DNA of 64,000 bases from Candidatus Aenigmatarchaeota archaeon (GCA_016180965.1 JACPAF010000001.1:223513-287512); one strand, 5' to 3'. Positions 14,524-29,153 are shown, counted from the first letter of the stretch. The notes: generated by a model not told the origin, from the letters alone. Numbers and translations: made by a program.

Positions 14524-14556
14524 TTGGAAGAGAAAAATATAATCAGTGTTTATGCT

Positions 14557-15168
14557 ATGGTAACTCCCAAAAGCGCTGCAGATAAATACGAACAGATAGA
14601 CCGACTGACGCGCACTGGAGTTTCTGTTCTAGGAAAACAGATGAGTCCGACAGCTGCGATAACATCTGCGGGAGATTCTTACACACAGGCCAATACACTT
14701 TTTGGCGGCCTCACAGCCCCGAAAAGAGGAAAAGACCAGGTTGCAGGATTGAAGGATGCTATTGTAGGTTATGCGCGAACAGCGATGCGTACACGGGTTG
14801 AAGATGTCTACAAAAAAATGGGCGATGCAAGTTATACGATTGACCGAAGAGGTTCCGAGTTACGAGGTTCCGGCATTTTAAGTTTCAAACCCGGCGCCGG
14901 CCCATTCAAAGCCTTAGCAATTGGGCGACCTTCGCCTGAAAAGGCATTGCGTTCAGTCGGCGATGCGCAAACATATGCAACTGAATCCAAAGGTTATGTT
15001 AAAGATGTTTTCAGCGCTTTCAACGCTACAGGTCTGACAGAAACCGGAGACAGGGAATTCAAAAAGGATCTCGAAAAAAGACTGGCCGATGCTGAAAAGA
15101 AGATCGGTGAAAAGAAGGCAGACCTTTGGGGAGCTGAAAGACGGAAATCGATTCGCAGGGGATATTGA
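14557..15168 (+). CDS. paralog family protein 5 (unknown function; ends ...IRRGY)
   Basis: RRGSELRGSGILSFKPG core and DLEKRLADAEKKI match paralog 3 (ESERKGPMRILPRSS, ELEKRLGNIASSL). The TTG at 14524 is in frame with ATG 14557. Confidence 0.55.
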   Translation: MVTPKSAADKYEQIDRLTRTGVSVLGKQMSPTAAITSAGDSYTQANTLFGGLTAPKRGKDQVAGLKDAIVGYARTAMRTRVEDVYKKMGDASYTIDRRGSELRGSGILSFKPGAGPFKALAIGRPSPEKALRSVGDAQTYATESKGYVKDVFSAFNATGLTETGDREFKKDLEKRLADAEKKIGEKKADLWGAERRKSIRRGY

Positions 15169-15189: not shown

Positions 15190-16107
15190 ATGCGGGATGA
15201 AATAATTAAAAAGGACGATTCGATGAACACACAAAACAAGAATAATCTGGTTTTCTTGGCGATATTTTCTGTGTTTATGCTGGTTCCCATGCTGGCTGCT
15301 GCCCAATCGAGCACAGGCGCGGTGAGCCAATCACTGATGAAGATGATCGGCGTGCCGGATTCAATTGCAACAGGCCCGCCGCAGACAATAATATTTTACG
15401 TGGTTTTGCCTGCGATTTTGATGTTCATAATAATGTATGGAATATTGGATGAGATCAAGCTTTTCTACAGGGGCGGGATCAATTTCGCGATCGCTGTTTT
15501 AGCAACGCTGATAACGATACCGTCGGGGTTGTTAGGCCAGGTTATCATAGGCATATACGGAGGCGGGCTGGCGACCCTTGCGATCATTACCGGTATTGCG
15601 ATTCTTCCTGCATTCATATCAACTTTCGGTTCCAGGATGGGGCTGCCTAATAATATTCTTGAGTTGCTGACAGCTGTTGTTTACGGTTTCGTAATGTACA
15701 TAGTTTTCGGTTTCCTTGTCGACGGGCCGGCCGGCGGAACGGGCGGAGTGTTAAAGAATTTCTCGTGGGTCAGATGGGTATTCGTAATAGGCGTTCCGAT
15801 ACTCGTTGCGTGGAGAGGCGCAATGAACAGGAATATTGGCCTTAGAATGGGATCGGAACTTGCGGTTGAAAGCGCGGAGATAAAAGCAGCGGAACAGGCG
15901 GTCACAAGATGCCAGAGGGCGTTGCGTGATTTGGCAATGGTGACCAATGCTACGGGTGCCGGACCCTCCACAGGCATAGACCCGGCCACTTACAGCAATG
16001 CCCTGAATAATGTGCAGATCATGTGCAGTTCCAAATATCCGATACCTTATTTGCAAACGCTTACACGCGCCCAAATAAACGCTTTGGCCACCAATCACAA
16101 GAGATAA
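15190..16107 (+). CDS. membrane protein family A member 1 (signal peptide ...LAAAQS, polytopic)
   Basis: 305 aa. N-terminal hydrophobic segment ending MLVPMLAAAQSSTG, then 5-6 TM helices. Confidence 0.5.
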   Translation: MRDEIIKKDDSMNTQNKNNLVFLAIFSVFMLVPMLAAAQSSTGAVSQSLMKMIGVPDSIATGPPQTIIFYVVLPAILMFIIMYGILDEIKLFYRGGINFAIAVLATLITIPSGLLGQVIIGIYGGGLATLAIITGIAILPAFISTFGSRMGLPNNILELLTAVVYGFVMYIVFGFLVDGPAGGTGGVLKNFSWVRWVFVIGVPILVAWRGAMNRNIGLRMGSELAVESAEIKAAEQAVTRCQRALRDLAMVTNATGAGPSTGIDPATYSNALNNVQIMCSSKYPIPYLQTLTRAQINALATNHKR

Positions 16108-16123
16108 TTCTTTTTTTAGTCCA

Positions 16124-16951
16124 TTGCAATATTGTTTTATGGGCAAATTTTTATTCGGGTTTATTCTGGCGCTGCTTGCGATATTTCCGTTTGCAGCTGC
16201 GCAATCCACATTGTCCGACGGAACGATCAAGTTCTGGACGACTTGGTTTTATGTGCCGGCGAAATACCTGGTTTCGTGGCAGTCCATAGTCATTTTTGCC
16301 GTCGTTCCTGTTTTGATTTCAATTTTTTTCGTGCATGAAATATGGAAGGATATAGGATTTTTCCATTCGGGCGCAGTCAATTTCTGGATACCTCTTCTTG
16401 TGGTCTATATGATGCTGCGAAACGGTTTTTGGGATTATGTCGAGTTGTTCGTGTCGAACGTGCAGATGATTCCGGCATTGGCTTTGTCGATGCTAGCCAT
16501 GCAGATTACGGGCAAGCTTAGGTCTAAAATAACTTCGTTTGGCTATTCCGGCCCGTTGGGCGGTGTATTGGCATACGCATTAGATGCGATAGGAATGGGC
16601 ATATTTTTCGGCGGATTGGGTTTTGTTGTCAGCAAGGGGCATTTAGGACCAATTGTTTACACCTTGTTTTTCGTTGGGGCTGGGGTGGGCATTTTACTAA
16701 TCTGGTGGGATTCGCATGGAAAGGCGAAGCAGGCCAAGCTGTCCAACTTGCTGGAACAATATGACGTTATAACCAAACAGATGGAACCGTTGGAGAAAAA
16801 ACTTGTCGAGCTGGAAAAGAAGAAACAAGCTGCAATCGCTGCTAAAAGGAATTTTGAAGCGTTGGACATAACTCAGGAAATGGTTGCAGTTAACAGGCAG
16901 ATAGAAGGTTTGCGTGCTGAGAGAGAGGCAATTTCCGCGGGCGCGGCATAA
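16124..16951 (+). CDS. membrane protein family A member 2 (signal peptide ...FAAAQS, polytopic, C-terminal coiled coil)
   Basis: AIFPFAAAQSTLSDG parallels member 1. C-terminal LEKKLVELEKKKQAAIAAKR coiled coil. Confidence 0.5.
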   Translation: MQYCFMGKFLFGFILALLAIFPFAAAQSTLSDGTIKFWTTWFYVPAKYLVSWQSIVIFAVVPVLISIFFVHEIWKDIGFFHSGAVNFWIPLLVVYMMLRNGFWDYVELFVSNVQMIPALALSMLAMQITGKLRSKITSFGYSGPLGGVLAYALDAIGMGIFFGGLGFVVSKGHLGPIVYTLFFVGAGVGILLIWWDSHGKAKQAKLSNLLEQYDVITKQMEPLEKKLVELEKKKQAAIAAKRNFEALDITQEMVAVNRQIEGLRAEREAISAGAA

Positions 16952-16987
16952 AAGCAAGATTTAAGATTTGGAGGAGTAACTAATACT

Positions 16988-17584
16988 ATGTTTTCGGCTG
17001 CGTTCCAGTCTCCGCCTTCCGGTTCTGTGGCATCGTCAATATTCAAAGTGCTTGATAACTTGCAAGCTCAACAACTGGTCGTGCCGTTCCTTCTAACTTT
17101 CGTGATAGCGTATGGCGTATTGGATACGATACACATATTCAGAAAAAACAGCATTAACGCGATAATTTCATTGGCAATATCATTTTTTGCGATATTCTAC
17201 GGGCCTTACGGGGCGATGGGTAAGTTTTTGACACAACTGTACGGCACTGGCGCAGTCGCTATTGTTGGTTTAGTCATGTTCATGATAATCCTCGGCGTGT
17301 TTAGTTTGGGCGGCAACCATATGCCCGGCGTAGGCATGTTCCAAAGGCTTTTCGGCATGTCCGGCGGGGTTGTGGGCGGTATCGTTATCGTAGTTGTTTT
17401 CATATTTTTGCTTGCTTCGGGCTGGTTCGAAAATGTCGGAATAAGATTGGATCCGGATACGACTGCGTTGATGATTATTATTCTGGTAATTATTGCGTTC
17501 ATTGCGATAGTTGCGCGACCGGACAGAACCAGGACATGGTGGCATCATATGTTCCCGCCCGGCGCGCAAGGCGGACAGTGGTAG
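16988..17584 (+). CDS. membrane protein family B member 1
   Basis: LVVPFLLTFVIAYGVLDTIHIF motif shared with the next three genes. Four TM helices. Confidence 0.5.
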   Translation: MFSAAFQSPPSGSVASSIFKVLDNLQAQQLVVPFLLTFVIAYGVLDTIHIFRKNSINAIISLAISFFAIFYGPYGAMGKFLTQLYGTGAVAIVGLVMFMIILGVFSLGGNHMPGVGMFQRLFGMSGGVVGGIVIVVVFIFLLASGWFENVGIRLDPDTTALMIIILVIIAFIAIVARPDRTRTWWHHMFPPGAQGGQW

Positions 17585-17659
17585 GAATTGCAAAACTTGC
17601 AAAGTTTGATCAAAAGTGAGTTTGTCAAGGAATAAAAGCTCGAAAGAAGAATTGATATA

Positions 17660-18151
17660 ATGGTTTCGGATATTTTTACGCCTTTGGTCGGAAATTTAAA
17701 CAACCTCGGTTTTTACAAATTCGTCCTTCCGTGGCTGTTTACGTTGGCCGTTGTATATGGTGTGCTTTTGAAAGTCAAAGTTTTTGGAACTGACCAGCAA
17801 AAATCGTTGACCGCTGTCATAGCTATTGTCGCGGCGTTTTTCGTTGTTAATTACACGCCCGCTGGGTTTGCGTTAGACGGTTTTTTCACTCAAGTCTTTG
17901 GTGTGGGCATTTTGATACTCACCGGCATTTTTGTCGTACTTCTGGTTATGGGTTTAGTCGGGTTAAAAGGCGAGGATATATTCAAGGCTGAGAACCTGAA
18001 AACTGGCGGCGGCATGGCTGTTGTATTATTAGTAGCATTCATAATTTTCCTGTTCTTTACGATCGGCGGAATACATATAGCTTCGGATCAGTTATCTCTG
18101 ATAGCCGTGATGATATTCATGATTGTCGCGCTGGTTTTCATAGCTAAATGA
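17660..18151 (+). CDS. membrane protein family B member 2
   Basis: LGFYKFVLPWLFTLAVVYGVLLKVKVF. Confidence 0.5.
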   Translation: MVSDIFTPLVGNLNNLGFYKFVLPWLFTLAVVYGVLLKVKVFGTDQQKSLTAVIAIVAAFFVVNYTPAGFALDGFFTQVFGVGILILTGIFVVLLVMGLVGLKGEDIFKAENLKTGGGMAVVLLVAFIIFLFFTIGGIHIASDQLSLIAVMIFMIVALVFIAK

Positions 18152-18215
18152 CCGTACGGGATGAAAAAAAAACAAAATCGATAATTTGTATAAATAAAAC
18201 TATGGAAGAATTTCA

Positions 18216-18761
18216 ATGGCAACTTTTGATTTCATCGCACTGCAAAACACGTTAAAAGCAATGGGCTTTTACGACTTTGTTTTGCCTTGGCTGTTAGCGT
18301 TTGCGATCGTGTTCGGCATTTTACAAACAGTTAAAATTTTTAAGAAAGGTGATGCGTCAAACACGTCCGTCGACGCTGTTGTTTCGCTAGTTGTTGCGTT
18401 CTACCTGACAATATTCACTCCTTATTCCGGATTCTTGTCGTCGTTCTTCAGTAAATTATTCGGAAGCTCAATAATAATGCTGTCGAGCGTTCTCGTACTG
18501 TTAATGTTCGTGGGAATATTCGGGTTTAACATAAAAGATCTTCTGTCAAAGAAGGACGGTGAGAAGACAGAGCTCACGCCGATTGGTATAGCAGGTTTAA
18601 TAGGCGCGTTTATCGTCGCAGCAATACTTTTCATCAATGCCACTTCGGGCGTGTTTTCTTTCGGCGGTTCGGACATTTTAAACGGCGATACGCTGACAGT
18701 TCTTTTGTTTTTAGGAATAATCGGCGCGGTTATATGGTTTGTTGTAAAGGGCGCGAAATAA
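18216..18761 (+). CDS. membrane protein family B member 3
   Basis: MATFDFIALQNTLKAMGFYDFVLPWLLAFAIVFGILQTVKIFKKG. About 75% identical to member 4. Confidence 0.55.
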   Translation: MATFDFIALQNTLKAMGFYDFVLPWLLAFAIVFGILQTVKIFKKGDASNTSVDAVVSLVVAFYLTIFTPYSGFLSSFFSKLFGSSIIMLSSVLVLLMFVGIFGFNIKDLLSKKDGEKTELTPIGIAGLIGAFIVAAILFINATSGVFSFGGSDILNGDTLTVLLFLGIIGAVIWFVVKGAK

Positions 18762-18794
18762 GGTTTTAAATACGTCGGAGAATAATCGTAGATA

Positions 18795-19388
18795 ATGGCG
18801 ACGTTTGATTTTATTGGTTTGCAAAACACCCTACGTTCGATGGGTTTCTACGATTTTGTTTTGCCGTGGCTGTTGGCTTTTTCAATTGTTTTCGGCATTT
18901 TGCAGACGGTCATGATATTCAAGAAAGGCGCGGACAACACAAAATCAAACACGTCTGTTGATGCTGTCATAGCGCTTGCCGTTGCTTTTTACCTGACAAT
19001 ATTCACGCCTTATTCCGGATTCTTGTCGTCTTTTTTCAGCAAACTATTCGGCAGTTCAATCATAGTTTTATCAGGAATTTTAATGCTGTTAATGTTCGTG
19101 GGCATATTCGGATTTAATTCCCAAGAATTGTTCGGTGGAACTAAATCTAAAGCGGCGATAACCATAGTCGCGTTGATACTTGCCGGTTTGTTTTTGATAA
19201 ATGCAAGCTCCGGCGTGTTCTCGTTCGGCAACGGCCAGTTAGTTAACGGCGAAACGCTGACGGTTATCGCGTTTTTCGGAATGATCGCTGCGATAATATG
19301 GTTTGTGGTAAATGACGGGAAAACAAAAGAGAAAGACGAGGATGACAAGACTACGAAAATAGACCCAAAAACGGGCAAGCCTATATAG
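18795..19388 (+). CDS. membrane protein family B member 4 (recent tandem duplicate of member 3)
   Basis: MATFDFIGLQNTLRSMGFYDFVLPWLLAFSIVFGILQTVMIFKKG. Confidence 0.55.
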   Translation: MATFDFIGLQNTLRSMGFYDFVLPWLLAFSIVFGILQTVMIFKKGADNTKSNTSVDAVIALAVAFYLTIFTPYSGFLSSFFSKLFGSSIIVLSGILMLLMFVGIFGFNSQELFGGTKSKAAITIVALILAGLFLINASSGVFSFGNGQLVNGETLTVIAFFGMIAAIIWFVVNDGKTKEKDEDDKTTKIDPKTGKPI

Positions 19389-19447: not shown

Positions 19448-19912
19448 ATGGAGAGAGAGGGCATTTATTCGTTGCCGTTTACTATTGTTCACAACGAGGT
19501 TTCTAGAACAGCCAATAATTTTGGTTACAAGGGTATCAGTCATTCAGATATTTTCTATGATGCACAACATGGGCAATTTGTTTACATGGGCCGAGATGGT
19601 TACCATTCAGTTAGAGAACCAGTCTGGTCCAACGGCTCTGTCAGTGTGTCTAGAAATTTATCTGTGGTCGGAAAACGAATTCTTTTGACATGGCCGTGGG
19701 ATCATCTGCTTATTAGGATGTACGATGAAATTGCAGTTAATACCGCCACAAACGGAGACGGAGTCTTGGGGGCATCTTCGGTAAAAGCTGACTTTTCGAA
19801 AAATTATTCGGGAGAAGTCGCTGACCTATTCTTTACTTTGGACAGGCTAGAAAAGCAACTTTTTATCACAAGTAACGCAGGAATAACCAGATCATTGCCA
19901 CGCGGTCTGTAA
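19448..19912 (+). CDS. hypothetical protein
   Basis: 154 aa ORF with no recognisable motif. Confidence 0.35.
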   Translation: MEREGIYSLPFTIVHNEVSRTANNFGYKGISHSDIFYDAQHGQFVYMGRDGYHSVREPVWSNGSVSVSRNLSVVGKRILLTWPWDHLLIRMYDEIAVNTATNGDGVLGASSVKADFSKNYSGEVADLFFTLDRLEKQLFITSNAGITRSLPRGL

Positions 19913-19915: not shown

Positions 19916-20596
19916 TTACTGCTTGTTTATTTTCTGCAAAGAATCGTTTACAGCGCGCACGGATTCTATCATTGACGGCAATGTTTCTTTGAACGCTTTT
20001 TCAATCGATCCTATCCGTGCGTCTATTTGGTCGAGGTTGTCATGATATTGGTCTAATTTACCTTCGATGCCGCCCGACGCAGACGTACCGGATTCTTTTA
20101 ACGTCCGTATTTGAAGATCGACATCATGCAACCTCTCGTTAACGGAATCGAATCGTTTTTCTATCGCGTCTATCCTGAATTCCAATTGTTTCCATTTCTC
20201 TTCTACGACAGCTTCGACGACTTCTTCGATCTCTGTCGTGGACGGCGATGAATTTAATGCCACTGGTATTTCGGCCATCTCGGGCGTTGAAGGCTCCCAT
20301 TCTGTCCCGGCTTGCATTTGCGGTTGTTGCTGTTCGACTGGAAATTCAAAATCGTTTTGCTGGGCCTGCGGCTGTTCGGGAACAGCGAATCCCATGGGCT
20401 GCATTTCCTGTTGCGGCTGAGTTTGCATTTGTTGTTGGGGCTGCTTTGGCTGCGAAACAGTTTCTTTAACAGCGGTCATGACAGCTGTCCGTTCGTTGTT
20501 CATTGATTGGGAGAAATCGGAATCCTGCGCTGCGGGGCGCGGCATGTTTACAGGCATTGATTGTTTCTCTTCAGACTTCTTCTTGAACAGCCACAT
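19916..20596 (-). CDS. Gln/Pro-rich low-complexity protein with C-terminal coiled coil
   Basis: N-terminal QPKQPQQQMQTQPQQEMQP repeats. C-terminal about 100 aa are heptad-like (LEFRIDAIEKRFDSVNERLHDVDLQIRTLKE). Confidence 0.45.
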   Translation of the reverse strand: MWLFKKKSEEKQSMPVNMPRPAAQDSDFSQSMNNERTAVMTAVKETVSQPKQPQQQMQTQPQQEMQPMGFAVPEQPQAQQNDFEFPVEQQQPQMQAGTEWEPSTPEMAEIPVALNSSPSTTEIEEVVEAVVEEKWKQLEFRIDAIEKRFDSVNERLHDVDLQIRTLKESGTSASGGIEGKLDQYHDNLDQIDARIGSIEKAFKETLPSMIESVRAVNDSLQKINKQ

Positions 20597-20662: not shown

Positions 20663-21253
20663 ATGCACGCTGACAGTTTATATTTTGTGGCCGATTTACT
20701 CAGTTATTTTTCAATTATTTTTTTCGATTGGCTTAACCTTTTTACCGCGCCTTTTGCCAAGGGCGATTCCGATGTCCTGTGGATAATTGTACCTATATAC
20801 CTAAGCTGGCTGTTGGCCGAATATTACCAGGAAAAAGCCGGCACAAGCATAGGAAATGCGATAAGCAACGGTTTCATCGGTTTGTGGGTAGGGATAGATT
20901 GGGCGCGCCGTTTGGCGGGCGAGTTCGCGTTAACTGCGGTTTTTGCAGGCAAGGCTTCCATAACCGTGTCCATGTTCATTTACGGCTCTCTGGTAATCTA
21001 TAACGGCATGAAAGGGAGGAAACTGGCGATGCTGATCGGGCGGGTTAAGGAAGTCAGTTATTTGATGATAGTTTTTTCGCCCATAGTTTACGGGTTAGTT
21101 CCGTTGACTTTTGACACAATCATAGGCATCGTGCTGTTTTTCCCCCTGGTTTACGGAATAACAGGAATTGCAGATAAGATATTGCCGTCGCCGCCAGAGG
21201 AAGCGAAGCCTGCTTTGAAAAATGAGACGCAGCCAAACACAGAGAAACAATGA
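20663..21253 (+). CDS. hypothetical polytopic membrane protein
   Basis: 196 aa, 5-6 TM helices. No GxGD or other protease signature found. Confidence 0.4.
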   Translation: MHADSLYFVADLLSYFSIIFFDWLNLFTAPFAKGDSDVLWIIVPIYLSWLLAEYYQEKAGTSIGNAISNGFIGLWVGIDWARRLAGEFALTAVFAGKASITVSMFIYGSLVIYNGMKGRKLAMLIGRVKEVSYLMIVFSPIVYGLVPLTFDTIIGIVLFFPLVYGITGIADKILPSPPEEAKPALKNETQPNTEKQ

Positions 21254-21277: not shown

Positions 21278-21676
21278 CTAGGCCTGTTTTTTGAAATCTT
21301 CAAGCATTTTCCTGACTTCCGAGATTGTTACGAATTGTGATTTAATCGGGTTGATCAGGTCTATGAAACCCTGTATTTCGCGAAGCTCTGTTTTTGTCGA
21401 TGCGCGTTCCATTTGTTTTGATAATTTCCGGGTGTCGTCTTCGATCTTAGACACGCGGTTTGCCAGTTCGTCTATTTTTGCGTTCAATTTGTCAGTCGAC
21501 AGTTTTGCCTGTTTGAACTGCTCAACCACGCTTTGGTCTATGTTCGATAACGTCGATTCCGAACCGCTCATCTTTTGTTCTACCAATCGCAACCGTTTAG
21601 AGTTATCATTGAAACGGCGTATCAACTCCCCGATTACTGCTTGCACGTTGGCTGGTTTCTTGTCGAAGACGGCCAT
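21278..21676 (-). CDS. coiled-coil protein, divergently transcribed from the pilus ATPase
   Basis: 132 aa, heptad-rich (KLNAKIDELANRVSKIEDDTRKLSKQMERAS). Confidence 0.45.
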   Translation of the reverse strand: MAVFDKKPANVQAVIGELIRRFNDNSKRLRLVEQKMSGSESTLSNIDQSVVEQFKQAKLSTDKLNAKIDELANRVSKIEDDTRKLSKQMERASTKTELREIQGFIDLINPIKSQFVTISEVRKMLEDFKKQA

Positions 21677-21710: not shown

Positions 21711-23984
21711 ATGGCCTTGCAGTTTGAGTACAGTCCGGAAGATAATTCTATAAGATTGAACACGCTGGGCACTTTATACGGGTCAAGTTTGGAGGATTTT
21801 GAGGCTATAATGGCAGCGGCGATAGACAAAATTGTCGAGGTCAAGAAAGTTTCGAGAATAATCCTGGCTGAGACGCGCGAATATGAATATGACTGGGAAC
21901 AAACACGCCTGTTGGTTGAGATCGCAAATGCTTTGGACGAAATAGTGCGCGGGCGACGTTTGTTGTCTGTTACCAACATATCCATACCAAATTGCGACCG
22001 GCACACCGCGGAAAGAAGCCATAACGTGCAGCGCATTGTCATTGATTTGATGCGGCGCGACCCTATTGGGGCGTATGCGGAAGTTTTGAGAGAGATACGC
22101 AAAGTGAAAATAGAAGCGCGGAAAAATCCGTACCACGTGCAATGCTACGCGCACTATGTCAATAATTCGCTTGCGCAAATACAGCGAATAATGGAATCCA
22201 CGACTTTGATCCAAATGATCAAAGATAACGTTGCCGGTTATCACATCGGGGACCGTACACTTTACAGAGAAATATTCCACCCTACAATACGGCCGAATTT
22301 CATGTTAACGCGTTTCATGTCCGCGACGCCGAAGGAAGGGCAGGCGGTCGACCGTTATAAAATAGGCGACATAGAAGTTGAAATTTACCGCATACCGTCG
22401 AAATCGGAATTAGTTTATCACGTGATTCCTCCGGAGTTTCAGTTAACGGAAGACAAGTACATGCTGTTGGACGCTGCGAGGCGTTACATGGCTGAACACA
22501 AACCGGTTGAGACTGAATTTTCAGATCCGGAACGCGCGCGCGAAATATTCTCCAACATCGGGCGCGACATGATACGAGACCTTTCGACGAACATGGGAAT
22601 TTTTTTGAGCCCGCTTGAGATAGAAAATATTACTAAAATACTGACGCGGTATACGGCCGGGTTTGGAGTGTTGGAAATATTATTAGCTGACGAAAAAATA
22701 CAGGACATTTACATAAATTCACCGATCGGGCAGAATCCGATTTACATAAACCACGCAGACTACAATGAGTGTTCGACTAACCTAATTCCTACGAAAGATG
22801 ATGCGGAGTCATGGGCAACGAGGTTCCGCATTGCGTCCGGGCGCCCGCTGGACGAAGCTAACCCGGTTTTGGACACGGACATAAATGTTCCGGGCGGGCG
22901 GGCAAGAGTAGCTGCGATCACGAAAACCTTGTCGCCCGAGGGTTTGGCATTTGCATTCCGAAGGCACAGGGATAAACCGTGGACGCTGCCGTTGTTCATT
23001 AAGGCAGGCGCGATAAGCCCGTTGTTCGCGGGTGTCATGAGTTTTTTAGTTGATGGATCAGCATCTATCCTGATCGCAGGCGGAAGAGGTTCTGGTAAAA
23101 CTTCATTATTAAACGCGATGATGCTTGAAATTTCGCCGAACAAGCGGATACTGACAGTCGAAGACACAATCGAATTGGCCGTGGATTACATGAGGAAACT
23201 CGGCTACAATATTGAAAGATTAAAATCGCGTTCCGTGATAACGCATATTGAAACAGAGATGGCTGCGGACGAGGCGTTGCGAACGGCGCTGCGCCTCGGA
23301 GATTCATCTCTGATAGTGGGCGAAGTCAGAAGTCTGGAAGCGAAAGCGCTCTATGAGGCAATGAGAATAGGCGCGTTGTCGAACGTTGTCGCAGGGACAA
23401 TTCACGGTGAGTCGCCTTATGGCGTTTATGACCGTGTTGTCAACGATCTTGGCGTGCCGTCGACGAGCTTCAAAGCCACGGATATAATCGTGATATCAAA
23501 AATGCTTCGTTCTGCGGATGGGTTACACAAATTTCGCCGTGTTACGGAATTAACAGAAGTCCGCAAACACTGGAAGACGGATCCGTATGACGAGAAAGGC
23601 TTTGTCAACCTCATGGAATATTCCGCGTCCGCGGACGAGTTAAAACCTACGGAAATATTATCTACGGGCGAGTCGGAAATAATCAACCGCATCGCCTCGC
23701 TAACAAGGGAGTGGGAAGGCCGTTGGGAGGATGTCTGGGAAAACATACAACTGAGAGCGAATATAAAAAAAGCGATGGTTGATTATTCGATAAAATTGAA
23801 TTTTCCGGAATTGATTGAGGCGCCTTGGGTCACGCAATCGAACGAACAGTTCCATATAATTTCTTCCAGGCTGAAAGAAGAAACGGGCTACATGGATCCC
23901 AAGGAGATATTTTCCAGGTGGGATAAGTGGTTTTCTTCGAAAATCAAGGAACGCGCCCCGCGAATGTCGGCACGGGTTTTGTGA
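21711..23984 (+). CDS. type IV pilus/secretion ATPase (FlaI/PilB/GspE/VirB11 superfamily) with about 300 aa N-terminal extension
   Basis: Walker A ILIAGGRGSGKTSLLNAMM, Asp box TVEDTIEL, Walker B/His box SLIVGEVRSLEAKALYEAMRIGA..VAGTIHG. 757 aa versus about 540 aa for FlaI. Confidence 0.85.
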   Translation: MALQFEYSPEDNSIRLNTLGTLYGSSLEDFEAIMAAAIDKIVEVKKVSRIILAETREYEYDWEQTRLLVEIANALDEIVRGRRLLSVTNISIPNCDRHTAERSHNVQRIVIDLMRRDPIGAYAEVLREIRKVKIEARKNPYHVQCYAHYVNNSLAQIQRIMESTTLIQMIKDNVAGYHIGDRTLYREIFHPTIRPNFMLTRFMSATPKEGQAVDRYKIGDIEVEIYRIPSKSELVYHVIPPEFQLTEDKYMLLDAARRYMAEHKPVETEFSDPERAREIFSNIGRDMIRDLSTNMGIFLSPLEIENITKILTRYTAGFGVLEILLADEKIQDIYINSPIGQNPIYINHADYNECSTNLIPTKDDAESWATRFRIASGRPLDEANPVLDTDINVPGGRARVAAITKTLSPEGLAFAFRRHRDKPWTLPLFIKAGAISPLFAGVMSFLVDGSASILIAGGRGSGKTSLLNAMMLEISPNKRILTVEDTIELAVDYMRKLGYNIERLKSRSVITHIETEMAADEALRTALRLGDSSLIVGEVRSLEAKALYEAMRIGALSNVVAGTIHGESPYGVYDRVVNDLGVPSTSFKATDIIVISKMLRSADGLHKFRRVTELTEVRKHWKTDPYDEKGFVNLMEYSASADELKPTEILSTGESEIINRIASLTREWEGRWEDVWENIQLRANIKKAMVDYSIKLNFPELIEAPWVTQSNEQFHIISSRLKEETGYMDPKEIFSRWDKWFSSKIKERAPRMSARVL

Positions 23985-23988: not shown

Positions 23989-26061
23989 ATGTCGGATGAA
24001 AGGAAAAAGATAGACGAGGAGGAACTTGCGCGCATCGCGCGCGATTACCAGACAAAAGTGTTCGATGAGGATAAACCCGAAAAAAACGAGCAGAACTTTT
24101 TGTCGCTTGACTACAAAACGTTCAAAACCGAGGAGAGGGGTTCTAAAAAATCCCTTGGCAATTATGAAAAGCTGTGCGCTATTTCGGAGAAAATATTAAA
24201 GGTCGAGCCTTCGAAGGGTTCTGAAGAACATCTGCGCAAGGAAATAGATTTTACTAACCTACAGTGCGCACCTTCGAGCGTAACGTCGGCAGCATTTTTG
24301 TCCACGATAATGCTGCTTGTCATTTCCCTTGTTTTTATTTTGCTGGGCGCAGTCCCGATATTTGTAGGATTGACGATGCTAATTTTTTCCATGATATCCG
24401 GAGTTTACGTCTACGGTTATCCGTCGAAACGCGCCAAAGATTTCCGCGTTAAGGCGTCGGAGGAAATAGTATTGTCGATAGTTTACATGGTCATATCGAT
24501 GCGTATCTCGCCCAATTTGGAAAATGCTGTGAAATTTGTAGCAACGAATTTAACCGGCCCGCTTGCCTTGGATTTCCGCAAATTGCTGTGGGACATTTAC
24601 ATGCGGAAAGAGGAAAGCATCGATAAGGCGCTGGGCACGTACATAGACGCGCGATGGAAAAACGAGAACGAGGAATTTTCTTCGGCTTTGACATTAATAC
24701 GCAATTCGATAGACCAGCCTGAGAAGAAACGTCTTGCAATGTTGGACGAGGCTGTTGATGTGATATTAAAAGGCACGAAAGAAAGGATGAGCCATTATGC
24801 ACAGAATCTGCGGATGCCTTTGCTGATAATACATGCGATGGGCATTTTGCTGCCGATAATGGGATTGGTGATGTTCCCGGTATTAGTTTTGTTTTTATCC
24901 AATATTGTGCAGCCGTACATGCTGTTTTTGGGTTATGACGTGTTTTTGTTTTTGGGATTGTACTGGTACACGTCAAGCGTATTGGCAACGAAACCGCCGA
25001 CGCTTTCTAAACCTGATGTTTCAAAACATCCGGACACGCCAAGAGAAGGATATTTCCGCGCTCACGTTTTCGGGAAAAAACTGGAGATAAAAACAATCAT
25101 ATTGCCGTCCATACTTTTCGCAGTTCTGTTTTTCATAGGCTATAATGGAATGGTTTCCGGAGCAAGTTCGTTTGAACGCGTGATTTATTCGACTGTAATA
25201 ATTGCGTCTATTTCGCTTTCGATATCTCTGTACGGTTTCCTTGAAAGTTTCCAGCGTACGAGCGTACGGCGCAAAGTCATTGGAGTTGAAGGCGAGTTTG
25301 CGGAGGCGATTTTCCATTTAGGCAACCAATTGTCTTCAGGCACGCCAATTGAAAATGCGATAGATAAAAACCAGGAGAAGATTCGAGATTTGAGCATCTC
25401 CGATTTTTTCGGGCGTATTGTGCAGAATATTAAAAGAATGGGCATGACATTCGAGCAGTCTATATTCGATAAAAATTACGGGGCCGTTTGGTACTACCCG
25501 TCGAGCTTAATAATTTCCGTGATGCGCGTTGTCGTTGAGGCGGTAAGGAAGGGCGTTTACAATGCGTCGCAATCGATGCTGTCCATTTCCCGCTATCTCA
25601 AGGACGTACATTCCATCGAAGAGGAGTTACGCGACATATTGGGCGAAAGCACGACGAGCATGAAATTTTTAAGCTCGATTCTTGCGCCGATGGTTGCCGG
25701 CGTTACGGTCACGATGGCGTTGATAATGCTCGATATAATCAAAGTTTTAGGAGACAAGCTCGCAGGATTAACGCAACAGGGCGTCGGGACTAGTTTGCCA
25801 TTGTTCTTGACAGTGGGTTTGGATAAAGGCGGCGTGACTGCGGAAATATTCCAGCTCGTGGTCGGCATATACATGATTGAAGTCGCGGGTTTGTTGTCGT
25901 ATTTCGTCAGCAAAATAGAGACGGGCGAAGATAAAATAAATCTTTACCACACATTATCTATCAATATGTTAATTTCATTGATAGTCTACGCGTTTTCGAT
26001 ACTTACCGTTTATTCCACTCTGGGTTCGCAGATACAAAACACAATACTAGGGGGCATTTGA
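23989..26061 (+). CDS. polytopic pilus platform protein (FlaJ/TadC/PilC-like, T2SS-F domains)
   Basis: 690 aa with at least nine TM helices, immediately downstream of the ATPase. Confidence 0.7.
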   Translation: MSDERKKIDEEELARIARDYQTKVFDEDKPEKNEQNFLSLDYKTFKTEERGSKKSLGNYEKLCAISEKILKVEPSKGSEEHLRKEIDFTNLQCAPSSVTSAAFLSTIMLLVISLVFILLGAVPIFVGLTMLIFSMISGVYVYGYPSKRAKDFRVKASEEIVLSIVYMVISMRISPNLENAVKFVATNLTGPLALDFRKLLWDIYMRKEESIDKALGTYIDARWKNENEEFSSALTLIRNSIDQPEKKRLAMLDEAVDVILKGTKERMSHYAQNLRMPLLIIHAMGILLPIMGLVMFPVLVLFLSNIVQPYMLFLGYDVFLFLGLYWYTSSVLATKPPTLSKPDVSKHPDTPREGYFRAHVFGKKLEIKTIILPSILFAVLFFIGYNGMVSGASSFERVIYSTVIIASISLSISLYGFLESFQRTSVRRKVIGVEGEFAEAIFHLGNQLSSGTPIENAIDKNQEKIRDLSISDFFGRIVQNIKRMGMTFEQSIFDKNYGAVWYYPSSLIISVMRVVVEAVRKGVYNASQSMLSISRYLKDVHSIEEELRDILGESTTSMKFLSSILAPMVAGVTVTMALIMLDIIKVLGDKLAGLTQQGVGTSLPLFLTVGLDKGGVTAEIFQLVVGIYMIEVAGLLSYFVSKIETGEDKINLYHTLSINMLISLIVYAFSILTVYSTLGSQIQNTILGGI

Positions 26062-26555
26062 TGAGCGCTTCCGATCAACCAAGGTTTTTGTTCTGGCTAG
26101 TCACTGCGTTCATAATGGCGCTCACGCTTTACGGCGTTGCGTCCTTGCTCTTGCCAAGATTGATAAGGTTTAACCAACTGCCCGAATCAGGCGAGTTGTA
26201 CGTGGACAGCGCCGACGCGCTTTCGACTAGGATTGCGTACAGCATGTGTAATTTGTGGCTCGCGCGCGACAGTTACAAAACCGGTTTTAGCAGCACGTCC
26301 CAGTACAAGTCCGTTTCCGCTTCGGTTGATAAAAACACAGTTGCATCGAAGTTATTCGATTCTGATTGCAAGGATTTCATTTTCAACAAACAATGGACAT
26401 ATACGGGCGACGAGATAGATGCGGATAAAAAAATCTATAACGTGGAAATATCTTTGGAACCGAATACCATAATGATTCCGGGGAGCGGTGAATCTCCATC
26501 AGTCATACTGAATAACGATAACAGAAAGATAATAGTAAATGTGAAAGAGAAATGA
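26061..26555 (+). CDS. membrane-anchored protein translationally coupled to the platform gene
   Basis: Start ATG overlaps the TGA of the platform gene (TGATG). N-terminal TM helix FLFWLVTAFIMALTLYGVASLLL. Confidence 0.45.
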   Translation: MSASDQPRFLFWLVTAFIMALTLYGVASLLLPRLIRFNQLPESGELYVDSADALSTRIAYSMCNLWLARDSYKTGFSSTSQYKSVSASVDKNTVASKLFDSDCKDFIFNKQWTYTGDEIDADKKIYNVEISLEPNTIMIPGSGESPSVILNNDNRKIIVNVKEK

Positions 26556-26564
26556 GATGATTTG

Positions 26565-26798
26565 ATGAATGTGTTAAAGGGCCAGATAGAATCCGAGGCT
26601 GCGAAAACGCTTTTCCTAGGCATACTGGCTTTGGTGGCGTTGGCGGTTATCGTGGCTGTAATATTTGCGTTTCAAGGCCTTTCGTCGGGAGCCAATTTAC
26701 CGAGCGTGTGCGATGTGGGCGGGGGGCTTGTGGATAAAACTGTGTGTTTGCCGGCGCGTGCAACGGCCTGGGTTTACAGCCATACCATCGGGCGATAA
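26565..26798 (+). CDS. small pilin-like protein (class III signal peptide)
   Basis: MNVLKGQIESEAAKTLFLGILALVALAVIVAVIFAF: KG-Q cleavage motif followed by a hydrophobic helix. Confidence 0.5.
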   Translation: MNVLKGQIESEAAKTLFLGILALVALAVIVAVIFAFQGLSSGANLPSVCDVGGGLVDKTVCLPARATAWVYSHTIGR

Positions 26799-26799
26799 A

Positions 26800-27036
26800 A
26801 TGAATAAATGTAAAAAAATTGGCGATGATATGTTAAACAAAAAAGGGATAACAAGCGCAATGCTGATCATTCTCGGATCCATAGCGGCAGGTTTGATAGT
26901 CCTTTTGGTAGTGATAGCTTCTTTGGATGAAAAAACAGGGCTGGTAGCATTGGCAATAGCGATAGGCAAGAGCATATGCGGTTTCATCGCAACAGTTATC
27001 ATAGGCGGTTTCGGATTGGCCATATGCAATATCTGA
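26800..27036 (+). CDS. small pilin-like protein
   Basis: MNKCKKIGDDMLNKKGITSAMLIILGSIAAGLIVLLVVIASL. Alternative ATG at 26830. Not in the track as a separate ORF. Confidence 0.45.
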   Translation: MNKCKKIGDDMLNKKGITSAMLIILGSIAAGLIVLLVVIASLDEKTGLVALAIAIGKSICGFIATVIIGGFGLAICNI

Positions 27037-27078
27037 ATGATATTTTATCTTAACGGACGAATAATCAAGAGGCATAAC

Positions 27079-28593
27079 ATGGTGAAAAAAAGAAAAGGAA
27101 TGGACGCAGCCGTGCTCAGTCTTGCGCTGGGCGTTGTAATACTTCTTGTTGTTTTAGGTGTTATTGTCGGGTTAAACACATCAGGTTCGTTCAAGGATTT
27201 TCTTGCCAAAGTTCCTTGGTTGAATAAAATTGTTCCGGTTGATGACACCAGTGATGGAGGCGGCGGCGGGCCAGGAGGAGGTTCTGTCGTAGCGCCGCCG
27301 GGCAAGCCATCGGGCGATGTGGTATATTTAGTCGCAGCCAGAAAAAGCACATCCACTGACCGCAGCCTTCGAGTTAAAATTTCCGACGGTGTTCCATCGG
27401 GCGAAAGCATTAAGTACAATTTCAAGAAAGGCGACACTTTGGAGTATGATGTTTATCTTCCTTTGAAGACTCCATGTACGGGCGGCATGGGTTTGGTTGT
27501 AACCGCAAATGGAAAAGACATAGACCTCGGCGACGACAATAAATGGGTAGATTCGACCGGGAAGGTTTCTGGTGGGTTGAAGAACTGCAATCCGGATCCG
27601 AAGAAGGTTGTTACGGAAAGCGATCTGACACCATACACCTATGACAAGAAACAATGGTATCATCGTGTTATTCCAATACCCGATGTATATGCCGGCGCAG
27701 CCACTCTGAAAGAAGTCAGATTATTGATGAACGGCGGCACGCCTTATGCTATGTACATTGCGGTTTATGACAATATCATTATAAAATCACCGGTCAACGG
27801 AAAAGATTATATCATATACAAGGACGGCGCTCCAAAATTCAGCGAAATAGATTGCGGTTCTGCGTTTGGTACAAAATGCAATTTCGATGAGGATAAAACG
27901 AAAGTTATAATCAGGAAACCAGCTAGCATCACATTGGAATACGACATCAAATCGGTTGCCGGCGAGATATTGAAGTTATCGGCGATAAGCGACGGCGGAG
28001 GATGCAGCTGGTTTGATAGCAGCGGATGCCAGTGGCTTTATTTGAAGGCGTTTGAATTGGGTTCTGCGTATACAGTCCAGCCGGGCGACATTGTTGAATA
28101 TGACGTTTATCTCGGAAAATGCGCCAAAGAGGTCGGCGGCATAGATTTGCGTGATAAGAGCGGTTCGATTAAGTGGAGTAATATGAAAGATTATTACTGG
28201 GACAACATGTATGACTGGGACAGCACGAAGATAATATCCGGCAGACCGGATGATTCGGGCATGGACCTAGGCACGAAAGCCGGCGAAATCGCATGCCTGA
28301 AATGGTACCACAGAAAACTTCCAGCTGCGCCGAATATGTGGGGTAAAGCCGTCGAAATTGTAGATTTGGCGATAGGATACGATGCGGGCGAGAATGAGCA
28401 AGTGAATGTTTATTATGACAACTTACAGATAACGGACGGCATCGGGCAGGTCAAGGCGTTTTATCCTGGCGGTGTGGATATAGTTCTCTACCAGTTTGAT
28501 GAGAAGAACGACAACGGCGGAATACGGGCGTACAAAAAAGACTCGGTTTCATTGACAAAGATAAACCCGGCAGACATTGATCACCCGACGTAA
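27079..28593 (+). CDS. large pilin-like surface protein (504 aa) with class III-type N-terminus
   Basis: MVKKRKGMDAAVLSLALGVVILLVVLGVIVGL, then a Gly-rich linker GGGGGPGGG and a Cys-containing beta-rich domain. AAGAGG Shine-Dalgarno before ATG 27079. Confidence 0.6.
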   Translation: MVKKRKGMDAAVLSLALGVVILLVVLGVIVGLNTSGSFKDFLAKVPWLNKIVPVDDTSDGGGGGPGGGSVVAPPGKPSGDVVYLVAARKSTSTDRSLRVKISDGVPSGESIKYNFKKGDTLEYDVYLPLKTPCTGGMGLVVTANGKDIDLGDDNKWVDSTGKVSGGLKNCNPDPKKVVTESDLTPYTYDKKQWYHRVIPIPDVYAGAATLKEVRLLMNGGTPYAMYIAVYDNIIIKSPVNGKDYIIYKDGAPKFSEIDCGSAFGTKCNFDEDKTKVIIRKPASITLEYDIKSVAGEILKLSAISDGGGCSWFDSSGCQWLYLKAFELGSAYTVQPGDIVEYDVYLGKCAKEVGGIDLRDKSGSIKWSNMKDYYWDNMYDWDSTKIISGRPDDSGMDLGTKAGEIACLKWYHRKLPAAPNMWGKAVEIVDLAIGYDAGENEQVNVYYDNLQITDGIGQVKAFYPGGVDIVLYQFDEKNDNGGIRAYKKDSVSLTKINPADIDHPT

Positions 28594-28624
28594 CGCGTAA
28601 TAATACCGTTTTACAAATACATTT

Positions 28625-28975: not shown

Positions 28976-29153
28976 GGGACAAAGCAGCGACAACGTACTG
29001 ATGCTGGCTTTGGTTGTCGTGGGCTTGTTGATTATCCTCGGCGCCGGGATATTTATCGTGGCAGTCGTCGGCAAATCCGCGGGATTAAATTCCGTCCCGC
29101 TGATCGGAGACGCGTTGTGCGACCTGATGAAAGGGTTGCGGGTGGAGTGTTAA
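28959..29153 (+). CDS. small pilin-like protein (KGQ class III motif)
   Basis: MENVFKGQSSDNVLMLALVVVGLLIILGAGIFIVAVV. GGGGGA Shine-Dalgarno. In-frame internal start of track ORF 28857-29153. Overlaps the previous gene by 17 nt in another frame. Confidence 0.45.
   Translation: MENVFKGQSSDNVLMLALVVVGLLIILGAGIFIVAVVGKSAGLNSVPLIGDALCDLMKGLRVEC

What the first reader, a model, noticed from the sequence alone, without database searches (positions are those of the whole stretch)
15190..19388. Six consecutive membrane-protein genes from two paralog families, including a near-identical tandem duplicate
15190 and 16124 share a ...(L/F)AAAQS signal-peptide terminus and a polytopic core, and 16124 adds a coiled-coil tail. 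16988, 17660, 18216 and 18795 share the FVLPWL(L/F)...VYG(V/I)L motif. 18216 and 18795 are about 75% identical with identical N-termini (MATFDFI(A/G)LQNTL), so the duplication is recent. The array lies between the unknown paralog family and the pilus locus and may belong to the same envelope system.
Basis: seen in the sequence. Interest (0 to 1): 0.55.

Follow-up and report, generated by a model that had tools for sequence, protein, structure and literature searches.

The report
DPANN pilus-linked membrane protein array
Six neighbouring genes in this tiny symbiotic archaeon (Aenigmarchaeota) encode related five-helix membrane proteins from one unnamed family that sits beside a type IV pilus motor in many ultra-small archaea, so they are probably undescribed parts of that cell-surface machine.

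Summary
The six + strand ORFs (15190-19388) are real. All six belong to one superfamily, not two unrelated families: A/B (signal peptide, 5-TM core, cytoplasmic helical tail) and C/D/E/F (160-200 aa, 5 TM, N-out/C-in). Profile-profile comparisons and block-shuffle controls show the similarity goes beyond hydrophobic composition.

E and F are 68-72% identical in protein and 71% in DNA, with dS about 1.7. Each has its own ortholog in other assemblies, so the duplication is old. It is not recent and not an assembly artefact.

The C-F core family is large (2052 clusters at 50% identity) and named only "hypothetical". It matches nothing in Pfam, NCBIfam, PHROGs, PADLOC, PDB sequences or Foldseek libraries. 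Named hits are almost all DPANN archaea.

A conserved module recurs across Aenigmarchaeota, Nanohaloarchaeota and Pacearchaeota-type genomes: 2-4 family copies, two coiled-coil proteins, a ~760-aa T2SSE ATPase and a ~700-aa platform protein. Starting from the ATPase instead, 31 of 42 metagenome loci carry the family just upstream.

Best reading: these are accessory membrane subunits of a DPANN-specific type IV filament machine, expanded to six copies here. The scaffold mechanism is inferred, not shown.

The parts
14524..15168 (+). Soluble 214-aa protein. It is a member of the upstream soluble paralog family (with 8338-9132, 9126-9824 and 9864-10550) and lies 21 bp upstream of A. It is lineage-specific and not part of the DPANN-wide module.
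   Evidence: BLAST cluster 9 is found in only 7 loci. It sits directly upstream of A in most close relatives (L001, L004, L006, L008, L009). No Pfam or NCBIfam hit. No TM segment.
15190..16107 (+). Gene A (305 aa, HYT71_01330). It has a signal-peptide-like leader ending AAAQ|S, then a 5-TM core related to the C-F family, then a ~95-aa helical C-terminal tail.
   Evidence: hhalign to B 98.9% and to C-F 96.7%. Shuffle z 7.6-10.3. Orthologs occur only in close Aenigmarchaeota relatives.
16124..16951 (+). Gene B (275 aa from the TTG; probable true start is the ATG at 16139). It has a leader ending AAAQ|S, five TM helices and a ~75-aa charged coiled-coil-like tail that is predicted to be cytoplasmic.
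   Evidence: Weak hits to coiled-coil families only. hhalign to A 98.9% and to C-F 95.6%. z=10 against the A profile.
16988..17584 (+). Gene C (198 aa), a core family member of the C-type ortholog group.
   Evidence: 147 bits against the family profile. Forms its own ortholog clade. Also matches the A and B profiles with z 11.2 and 8.2, so it bridges the two branches.
17660..18151 (+). Gene D (163 aa, HYT71_01345), the most conserved family member. It has five TM helices plus an N-terminal amphipathic helix.
   Evidence: 96% identical to its L003 and L004 orthologs. AF2 model with a 78-sequence alignment: pLDDT 80.3, pTM 0.55, all helical. Topology N-out/C-in by the positive-inside rule over 78 members.
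18216..18761 (+). Gene E (181 aa, HYT71_01350), the E-type copy of the tandem pair.
   Evidence: 87% identical to L003 E but 70% to L003 F; 92% to L004 E. NJ tree.
18795..19388 (+). Gene F (197 aa, HYT71_01355), the F-type copy, with a charged C-terminal tail (KTKEKDEDDKTTKIDPKTGKPI).
   Evidence: 81% identical to L003 F but 68% to L003 E. E vs F: dS 1.7, dN 0.20, DNA identity 70.7%.
19448..19912 (+). Soluble 154-aa protein of unknown function. It is present only in some relatives.
   Evidence: Cluster c27 in L003 and L018, with a weak match in L009. No family hit.
19916..20596 (-). Coiled-coil protein cc226: a Q/P-rich N-terminal half and a C-terminal coiled coil. It is a conserved module component.
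   Evidence: Found in 21 of 38 loci and in most ATPase-anchored metagenome loci. Sub-threshold hits to DUF7310 (E 4.6e-5) and FlaC_arch.
20663..21253 (+). Unrelated 196-aa polytopic membrane protein, present only in close relatives. Used here as a negative control.
   Evidence: Cluster c28. No similarity to the family, z about 0.
21278..21676 (-). Coiled-coil protein cc132, a conserved module component.
   Evidence: Found in 19 of 38 loci and in most ATPase-anchored loci. Only generic coiled-coil hits.
21711..23984 (+). Secretion ATPase of the type IV filament superfamily (757 aa). It has a conserved N-terminal extension of roughly 300-400 aa.
   Evidence: Pfam T2SSE. Best PDB relatives are Archaeoglobus GspE2 (2oap), CpaF and FlaI. 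Below the cutoffs of the FlaI and TadA models. 45-57% identical over its full length across DPANN phyla.
23989..26061 (+). Platform protein (690 aa), T2SSF/TadC/FlaJ-like.
   Evidence: Sub-threshold Pfam T2SSF hit. Always follows the ATPase.
26058..37561 (+). Downstream pilin-like and secreted proteins. Several have class III (prepilin-type) leaders, e.g. 27037 (MVKKRKG|MDAAV...), 28625 (RKENRMG|IAEY...), 29577 (MVVRKKG|MMIVE...) and 35863 (MVKRKG|ISLPI...).
   Evidence: Read directly from the translations. No Pfam families.

Best explanation
The six genes are a lineage-specific expansion of one uncharacterised DPANN membrane-protein family. Its members are dedicated accessory subunits of a DPANN-type type IV filament (pilus-like) machine.

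Each protein has five transmembrane helices, with the N-terminus outside and the C-terminus in the cytoplasm. TM1 carries the signature G-F-[YF]-x-F-x-L-P-[WF]-L-L-x-F-A-I-x-[YF]-G-x-L, followed by a basic cytoplasmic K-x-x-x-F turn. A and B have added a cleavable signal peptide, a short extracellular N-terminal segment and a cytoplasmic helical or coiled-coil tail.

Inferred model: the paralogs assemble into a hetero-oligomeric membrane collar around the ~700-aa platform protein. Their cytoplasmic loops and tails, together with the two soluble coiled-coil proteins (19916-20596 and 21278-21676), tether or position the ~760-aa ATPase through its long N-terminal extension. This would be a functional counterpart of ArlX/ArlCDE in the archaellum or PilM/N/O in bacterial pili.

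Shown here: homology among the six, topology statistics, the breadth of the family, and its conserved linkage to the ATPase, platform and coiled-coil genes.

Inferred only: physical association with the machine and the scaffold role.
For: One superfamily:
- hhalign A/B 98.9%, A/C-F 96.7%, B/C-F 95.6%.
- Block-shuffle z-scores of 7.6-11, with a negative-control membrane protein at z about 0.
- All six fall in a single BLAST-linked cluster of 100 members in 38 loci.

Large, real family:
- 2052 clusters at 50% identity with E<=1e-3, and 570 with E<=1e-10.
- dN/dS about 0.1 between E and F. D is 96% identical between species whose synonymous sites are saturated.

Linkage to the pilus machine:
- The module (family copies, cc226, cc132, ATPase, platform) appears in about 18-21 of 38 genome loci, down to 30-40% identity to D and despite strand rearrangements.
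- The same module appears in Pacearchaeota-type contigs L041-L043.
- Reciprocal test from the ATPase clade: 31 of 42 loci with at least 3 kb upstream carry at least one family gene within 5 kb. For loci with at least 5 kb upstream the figure is 28 of 36. The modal copy number is 3.

Topology:
- K+R counts per loop over 78 members run 0.55 / 2.96 / 0.10 / 2.41 / 0.36 / 3.32, i.e. N-out/C-in.
- This agrees with the signal peptides on A, B and P0151.

Oligomerising cytoplasmic add-ons recur in the family:
- Coiled-coil tails on B, on the L003 A-type protein and on c7 proteins.
- A Peptidase_S74 trimerising domain on P0151.

Genuine pilin candidates lie downstream, so the locus does not need these proteins as filament subunits.
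Against: - There is no experimental or structural evidence of contact with the ATPase or platform. Gene linkage could instead reflect co-regulation.
- About a quarter of ATPase-anchored loci lack a detectable family gene nearby.
- Single family copies also occur next to housekeeping genes.
- No conserved charged residue lies inside the membrane helices, so nothing points to an ion-driven stator.
- The AF2 monomer model is only moderately confident (pTM 0.55) and matches no known fold.
- Archaeal promoters and transcripts could not be assessed, so operon structure is unknown.
- HHpred-type searches against Pfam or PDB profile libraries were not available.
Confidence: 0.55

Rival explanations
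1. The proteins form a hetero-oligomeric channel or transporter, for example for uptake of host-derived lipids, metabolites or DNA. It would be co-located and co-regulated with the pilus but would not be a structural part of the assembly motor.
For: They are small polytopic proteins in tandem paralogous sets. Single copies occur away from the ATPase next to housekeeping genes. Linkage to the ATPase is strong but not obligatory, at 74-78%. DPANN archaea depend on host-derived compounds (background knowledge; PMC8407114 notes missing lipid synthesis).
Against: No match to any transporter family or fold. No conserved polar or charged intramembrane residues. The best-conserved features are TM1 and the cytoplasmic turn after it, and cytoplasmic coiled-coil add-ons recur; both fit protein-protein docking better than a pore.
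Confidence: 0.2
2. They are small membrane immunity, holin-like or toxin-related proteins, a class that often occurs as tandem paralog arrays.
For: Tandem small polytopic paralogs. A weak PHROG holin hit for F (E 0.0074). A and B diverge very quickly between close genomes.
Against: The holin hit is at noise level and the other five proteins have no hit. No PADLOC hit. No relative in IMG/VR. D, E and F are under strong purifying selection. The family has fixed synteny with a motor ATPase across phyla, and no toxin gene lies next to it.
Confidence: 0.05
3. They are unusual filament subunits (pilins) of the adjacent system.
For: Multiple paralogs beside a pilus ATPase. A conserved glycine sits before the first hydrophobic helix (G17).
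Against: They have five TM helices rather than one. The N-terminal segment is acidic or neutral and predicted to be outside, not a basic cytoplasmic class III leader. Conventional class III leader proteins are encoded downstream.
Confidence: 0.03
4. One reading: two unrelated paralog families, with E/F a recent duplication or an assembly artefact.
For: A/B and C-F differ in length, leader and tail. B alone does not reach significance against the C-F profile (z 1.6). E and F have nearly identical N-terminal 40 residues.
Against: link the branches, and the L003 A-type protein and gene C act as bridges. E/F have dS about 1.7 and 70.7% DNA identity, with separate orthologs in L003 and L004. The conserved N-terminus is a family-wide signature, not a sign of recency.
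Confidence: 0.02

Closest known systems
Archaellum motor scaffold proteins ArlX (FlaX) and ArlC/D/E
   Same: They are accessory, non-pilin components encoded beside a FlaI-type ATPase and FlaJ-type platform. ArlX is membrane-anchored with a cytoplasmic coiled coil that rings the motor. B, the c7 proteins and the two soluble coiled-coil proteins offer the same ingredients: membrane anchor plus cytoplasmic coiled coil. cc226 gives a weak FlaC_arch hit.
   Different: No detectable sequence homology. The proteins here have five TM helices, not one. The locus has no ArlF/G/H. The ATPase falls well below the FlaI model cutoff (141.7 vs 550 bits). The resemblance is functional analogy only.
Bacterial type IV pilus / T2SS inner-membrane alignment proteins (PilM/N/O, GspL/M)
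   Same: Paralogous membrane proteins with coiled-coil segments that connect the cytoplasmic ATPase to the platform and envelope. They are encoded in the pilus operon.
   Different: PilN/O and GspL/M are bitopic with periplasmic ferredoxin-like domains. The proteins here are polytopic with almost no extramembrane domain. No sequence or fold match.
Archaeal type IV pilus subclade 4F loci with coiled-coil protein arCOG07564 (Makarova, Koonin & Albers 2016, PMC4858521)
   Same: An ATPase-TadC pair accompanied by an intracellular coiled-coil protein. That paper notes the clade's ATPase also occurs in nanoarchaea without recognisable pilins. cc226 weakly matches DUF7310, a coiled-coil family (E 4.6e-5, below cutoff).
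   Different: No polytopic five-helix family is described for 4F or any other subclade in that paper. The 2026 TFF survey, bioRxiv 10.64898/2026.04.22.720090, does not describe one either. Assignment of the ATPase here to 4F was not tested phylogenetically.
Extra membrane proteins of the Sulfolobus bindosome and Methanococcus Epd loci (arCOG07264, arCOG07329 and others)
   Same: Precedent for uncharacterised integral membrane proteins encoded in archaeal type IV pilus loci and presumed to join the machine (PMC4858521).
   Different: Those are different, unrelated families (arCOG07264 has an N-terminal Zn ribbon). They are not tandem paralog arrays and are not DPANN-wide.
Anonymous DPANN lineage-specific protein families (Castelle et al. 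2021, PMC8204110; Makarova et al. 2019, PMC6393860)
   Same: Those surveys report that DPANN-specific families lack annotation, are mostly membrane-bound or extracellular, and that dark-matter genes sit in DPANN pilus loci. This family is very likely among them.
   Different: In the text I could search, neither paper singles out this family, its five-helix architecture, its paralog structure or its linkage to the coiled-coil/ATPase module. The 2019 paper interprets dark-matter genes in such loci as pilins, which does not fit these proteins.

Membership tests
Uncharacterised DPANN five-helix family (defined here by alignments A2/A3) | Significant match to the family profile, including the TM1 signature GF[YF]xFxLP[WF]LLxFAIx[YF]GxL | tested here: met
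   C, D, E and F score 147-232 bits. A scores 13.7-17.6 bits with z 7.6 and 96.7% by hhalign. B is linked only by profile-profile comparison (95.6%) and through A and C.
Uncharacterised DPANN five-helix family (defined here by alignments A2/A3) | Five TM helices with N-out/C-in topology | tested here: met
   Hydropathy, AF2 helices and positive-inside statistics over 78 members. A and B have five TM helices after a signal-peptide-like leader.
Uncharacterised DPANN five-helix family (defined here by alignments A2/A3) | Genomic linkage to two coiled-coil proteins, a ~760-aa T2SSE ATPase and a ~700-aa platform protein | tested here: met
   The window itself. Conserved in 18-21 of 38 genome loci, in L041-L043, and in 31 of 42 ATPase-anchored metagenome loci.
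Archaeal type IV pilins / archaellins (class III signal peptide proteins) | Short basic leader, [KR]-[GA] cleavage site, then a single N-terminal hydrophobic helix | tested here: not met
   The N-terminal 17 residues are acidic or neutral (mean K+R 0.55, D+E 1.24) and five TM helices follow. True class III leaders are present in downstream genes.
T2SSF / TadC / FlaJ platform proteins | T2SSF domain (PF00482) | tested here: not met
   No Pfam hit for any of the six. hhalign of the family against the platform alignment gives 6% probability.
ArlX/FlaX-type or FlaC/D/E-type archaellum accessory proteins | Sequence match to the family models, and co-occurrence with ArlF/G/H and archaellins | tested here: not met
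   No Pfam or NCBIfam match for the six. Only cc226 gives a sub-threshold FlaC_arch hit (17.8 vs cutoff 27.8 bits). No ArlF/G/H is recognised in the locus.
Phage holins / defence-system membrane effectors | Match to PHROG or PADLOC models, or a viral or defence gene context | tested here: not met
   One noise-level holin hit for F (E 0.0074) and none for the others. No PADLOC hit. No relative in IMG/VR.
NADH-quinone oxidoreductase subunit J (NuoJ), the best PDB sequence hit | Significant sequence match and shared fold | tested here: not met
   Profile against PDB gives E 0.0044 and 19.7 bits only. Foldseek of the AF2 model finds no NuoJ or any other match (best E 6.1).

The most novel reading that the evidence does not exclude
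The five-helix family, the two coiled-coil proteins and the long N-terminal extension of the ATPase together define a DPANN-specific class of type IV filament machine. Its multi-paralog membrane ring would be more than a scaffold: it would be the membrane conduit or anchoring organelle through which these host-dependent archaea attach to their hosts and draw material (lipids, metabolites or DNA) from them. The fast-changing, surface-exposed A/B members would tune host or partner specificity.
Probability: 0.15. Interest if true: 0.8.

Novelty: new variant of a known kind. Interest (0 to 1): 0.55.

Why it matters
DPANN archaea are obligate partners of other archaea. Their surface machinery is thought to mediate attachment and exchange, yet almost none of its parts are characterised.

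This work turns six anonymous 'hypothetical proteins' into a defined family:
- more than 2000 clusters at 50% identity;
- a clear sequence signature, a five-helix N-out/C-in topology and no known fold relative;
- consistent linkage to a distinctive pilus-type ATPase, platform and coiled-coil module across several DPANN phyla.

That gives experimentalists working on cultivated DPANN a concrete candidate set for the missing membrane components of the pilus or attachment apparatus. It also gives annotators a module that current archaeal type IV filament classifications do not describe.

The finding also shows that A and B are a lineage-specific, rapidly diverging, surface-exposed offshoot of the family. 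This is the kind of pattern expected for proteins at a host or virus interface.

Tried and rejected
- hmmscan of the six proteins and neighbours against Pfam, NCBIfam, PHROGs and PADLOC gave only noise. Scanning 78 diverse family members against Pfam gave no consistent family: DUF2070 in 5 of 78, Acyl_transf_3 in 3 and DUF2663 in 3, all weak.
- PDB sequence search with the family profile gave only NuoJ at E 0.0044. I rejected it because Foldseek found nothing.
- The first AF2 run, with 38 close sequences, was poor (pLDDT 66). The second, with 78 diverse sequences, reached pLDDT 80. Foldseek against PDB and BFVD returned nothing with E<3.9.
- The search for related loci with the diverse alignment A3 failed because it had no conserved stretch. 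It was rerun with A2.
- c7 proteins (three TM helices plus a coiled coil, upstream of the family in distant loci) may be the distant counterpart of A/B. hhalign to the family gives only 57.7% and to B only a coiled-coil match, so this is unresolved.
- I considered whether the family derives from the TM region of the platform protein. Rejected at 6%.
- A regular-expression search for a prepilin-peptidase GxGDxK motif in the window found nothing. This is not conclusive.
- Literature searches found no description of this family, only general statements about unannotated DPANN membrane families and pilus-locus dark matter.
- The sigma-70 promoter/terminator scanner was not used because it does not apply to archaea. 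TATA-like AT-rich boxes are visible upstream of E, F and G, but I draw no conclusion from them.

Full report
**Source and setting.**
The window comes from a Candidatus Aenigmarchaeota (DPANN) metagenome-assembled genome. Genes A, D, E and F are identical to NCBI proteins HYT71_01330, 01345, 01350 and 01355 on a 316-kb contig, all annotated 'hypothetical protein'. An archaeal-type threonyl-tRNA synthetase editing domain and other markers agree with an archaeal origin.

**Checking the observation.**
- Six + strand ORFs lie at 15190-16107 (A), 16124-16951 (B), 16988-17584 (C), 17660-18151 (D), 18216-18761 (E) and 18795-19388 (F). They are separated by 16-75 bp.
- A and B begin with a basic stretch, a hydrophobic stretch and AAAQS, which looks like a cleavable signal peptide. 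This is conserved in their orthologs.
- B probably starts at the ATG at 16139, since its orthologs start MGK/MNK.
- All six are polytopic by hydropathy.
- BLASTP gives E/F 68% over 184 columns, D to E/F 36%, C to D/E/F 30%, A to C/E/F 28-30% over 90-115 residues, and A to B 26% over 54 residues.

**Is the similarity more than hydrophobic composition?**
Yes.
- Profile-profile comparison with ortholog alignments gives A vs B 98.9% (E 2e-17, 208 columns), A vs the C-F family 96.7% (E 3e-10) and B vs the C-F family 95.6% (E 1e-8).
- The same method gives 6% for the family against the polytopic platform protein.
- I shuffled each protein 500 times in 15-residue blocks, which keeps local hydrophobicity. 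The real sequences stood out: A vs family z 7.6, A vs B profile 10.3, B vs A profile 10.0, C vs A profile 11.2, C vs B profile 8.2.
- B against the C-F profile alone is not significant (z 1.6).
- An unrelated membrane protein from the same locus (20663-21253) gives z about 0 throughout.
- All six fall into one BLAST-linked cluster of 100 proteins from 38 loci.
- The array is therefore one superfamily with two branches, not two families.

**The tandem pair E/F.**
- Protein identity is 68-72%, DNA identity 70.7%, dN 0.20 and dS about 1.7, which is saturated.
- E is closer to the E copy of L003 (87%) and L004 (92%) than to their F copies (70-75%). F behaves the same way: 81-85% to F copies against 68-72% to E copies.
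- A neighbour-joining tree recovers separate C, D and E/F ortholog groups. Within E/F, the E and F clades are shared by the window, L003 and L004.
- The duplication therefore predates the split of these species and is maintained by purifying selection.
- The near-identical N-termini reflect the family-wide conserved signature, not recency.
- The pair occurs in several independent assemblies, and at 71% DNA identity it is not prone to assembly collapse.

**The family.**
- An exhaustive profile search of 1.84 billion representative proteins found 2052 clusters at E<=1e-3, 570 at E<=1e-10 and 10 at E<=1e-30. Almost all are 155-210 aa and match end to end.
- Where a source names the protein it is 'hypothetical'. 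The named organisms are Aenigmarchaeota, Pacearchaeota, 'archaeon', Nanohaloarchaeota and Nanobdellati. A few are labelled otherwise (Thorarchaeota, Methanosarcinales, Patescibacteria). These sit on short contigs or on contigs with DPANN-like gene content, so they are probably binning errors.
- No relative exists in IMG/VR.
- No Pfam, NCBIfam, PHROG or PADLOC family matches.
- The PDB sequence search gives only noise.
- An AF2 model of D built on 78 diverse sequences is a bundle of an N-terminal amphipathic helix plus five long helices (pLDDT 80.3, pTM 0.55). It has no Foldseek match in PDB or BFVD.
- Conservation is concentrated in G17-F-[YF]-x-F-x-L-P-[WF]-L-L-x-F-A-I-x-[YF]-G-x-L (TM1), then F42, then A59-F-F (TM2), then F-F-[TS]-x-x-F-G (start of TM3) and G136-G137. 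No charged residue is conserved within the membrane.
- Loop K+R counts over 78 members alternate 0.55 / 2.96 / 0.10 / 2.41 / 0.36 / 3.32, which gives N-out/C-in.
- That topology matches the signal peptides on A, B and on P0151, and it places the tails of A, B and F in the cytoplasm.

**Genomic context.**
- In close relatives (L001, L003, L004, L006, L008, L009, L010) the order A-B-C-D-E(-F) is kept and is followed by cc226(-), cc132(-), ATPase(+) and platform(+).
- In genomes where D-type identity drops to 30-40%, the module is still present. It reads [c7: 3 TM + coiled-coil tail] [c8: divergent family member] family x2-3, cc226, cc132, ATPase, platform. It survives inversions of the coiled-coil pair or of the ATPase pair (L013, L015, L016, L022).
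- Three Pacearchaeota-type contigs show PRC-barrel, two family members, two coiled-coil proteins (minus strand), a 761-770-aa T2SSE ATPase and a 701-725-aa platform protein.
- The ATPase is a distinct, well-conserved clade: 45-57% identity over the full 757 aa across phyla, including the N-terminal extension.
- Its nearest solved relatives are Archaeoglobus GspE2, CpaF and FlaI. It is far below the FlaI and TadA model cutoffs.
- Reciprocal test: 80 metagenome loci were fetched with the ATPase alone. Of the 42 with at least 3 kb upstream, 31 carry at least one family gene within 5 kb, 28 carry at least two and 21 carry at least three. For loci with at least 5 kb upstream the figure is 28 of 36. 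The modal copy number is three.
- The A/B branch was not found in any of those 80 loci. It is confined to the window's close relatives.
- The window therefore holds an expanded, six-copy version of a module that usually has two to four copies.
- Single family copies also occur elsewhere in genomes beside housekeeping genes, sometimes near a small T2SSF-like gene.
- Downstream of the platform gene the window encodes several proteins with textbook class III prepilin leaders. The filament subunits are thus accounted for.

**Interpretation.**
What is shown:
- a real, large, DPANN-centred family;
- five helices with N-out/C-in topology;
- purifying selection;
- conserved linkage to a pilus-type ATPase, platform and two coiled-coil proteins;
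- recurrent cytoplasmic oligomerising add-ons, namely coiled-coil tails on B, on the L003 A-type protein and on c7, and a Peptidase_S74 trimerisation domain on P0151.

What I infer: the paralogs form a hetero-oligomeric membrane collar on the platform protein. Together with the coiled-coil proteins, they position or anchor the ATPase. This would be analogous to ArlX/ArlCDE or PilM/N/O, but is not homologous to them. I put this at about 0.55.

The main rival (about 0.2) is a channel or uptake function that is merely co-regulated with the pilus. Pilin, holin/immunity and artefact readings are disfavoured for the reasons given under the rival explanations.

**Comparison with the literature.**
- The arCOG-based survey of archaeal type IV pili (PMC4858521) describes extra membrane proteins and coiled-coil proteins in some subclades. 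It notes nanoarchaeal ATPases without recognisable partners, but it describes no five-helix paralog family.
- The 2019 dark-matter review interprets unknown genes in DPANN pilus loci as divergent pilins (PMC6393860). That reading does not fit these proteins.
- The 2026 TFF survey preprint does not describe the family.
- Protein-family surveys of DPANN note many unannotated membrane families, including an Aenigmarchaeota-specific module, without detail (PMC8204110).
- I therefore rate this as a new variant of a known kind: a type IV filament system with an undescribed accessory membrane family.
- Caveats: HHpred-level searches and the arCOG tables were not available to me.

**Limits.**
- There are no expression data and no archaeal promoter model.
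- No multimer prediction was possible because the structure jobs were exhausted.
- Some taxonomic labels rest on MAG binning.
- The genome-locus set was seeded with the family itself. Only one search is unbiased with respect to the family.

Noticed in passing
window 4719-5931: ftsZ appears split by a frameshift. The Tubulin/FtsZ GTPase domain is in ORF 4719-5657 and the FtsZ C-terminal domain is in an overlapping ORF 5572-5931 in another frame. Intact homologs in other loci are 359-389 aa. This is either a pseudogene or an assembly or sequencing error.
   Followed up: partly
window 13259-14485: A TnpB/OrfB_IS605 (Cas12f-like TNB domain) gene sits between the nucleotidyltransferase pair and the gene upstream of A. 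It is absent from that position in L001, L003, L006, L008 and L009. A member of the same TnpB cluster splits the array between D and E in another MAG (end of L007 / start of L018), so these elements are mobile around this locus.
   Followed up: partly
L018:3230-9241: In a related Aenigmarchaeota MAG the pilus ATPase ORF is 2003 aa because it carries two inteins with LAGLIDADG homing endonuclease domains inside the T2SSE domain.
   Followed up: partly
window 14524-17584 compared with L003 and L001: Divergence along the locus is mosaic. Against L003 the identities are ATPase 95%, platform 91%, cc226 92%, D 96%, E 87% and F 81%, but C 65%, B 37%, A 34% and no hit for the upstream soluble gene. 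L001 is otherwise more distant (D 82%) yet has A at 44% and B at 59%. The upstream end of the array looks like a fast-evolving or recombined cassette.
   Followed up: partly
window 8338-10550 and 14524-15168: A soluble paralog family (four copies in the window) has no database family. It is found only in close relatives (7 loci), always near the nucleotidyltransferase pair and the array.
   Followed up: partly
P0151 (Aenigmarchaeota, 786-kb contig; not in the window): One family member is fused to a C-terminal Peptidase_S74 (endosialidase chaperone, trimerising and self-cleaving) domain and is annotated 'tail fiber domain-containing protein'. It also has a signal peptide like A and B.
   Followed up: partly
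window 11226-13120 (minus strand): A conserved pair of a 249-aa protein and a 382-aa Polbeta/NTP_transf_2 nucleotidyltransferase lies upstream of the array in all close relatives. The pair resembles the MNT-HEPN-like DPANN family noted as unusually conserved in PMC6393860. I did not test this.
   Followed up: no
L041-L043, about 0.6-0.9 kb upstream of the family genes: In Pacearchaeota-type loci a 91-92-aa PRC-barrel protein precedes the two family members. It is absent from the window's locus.
   Followed up: no
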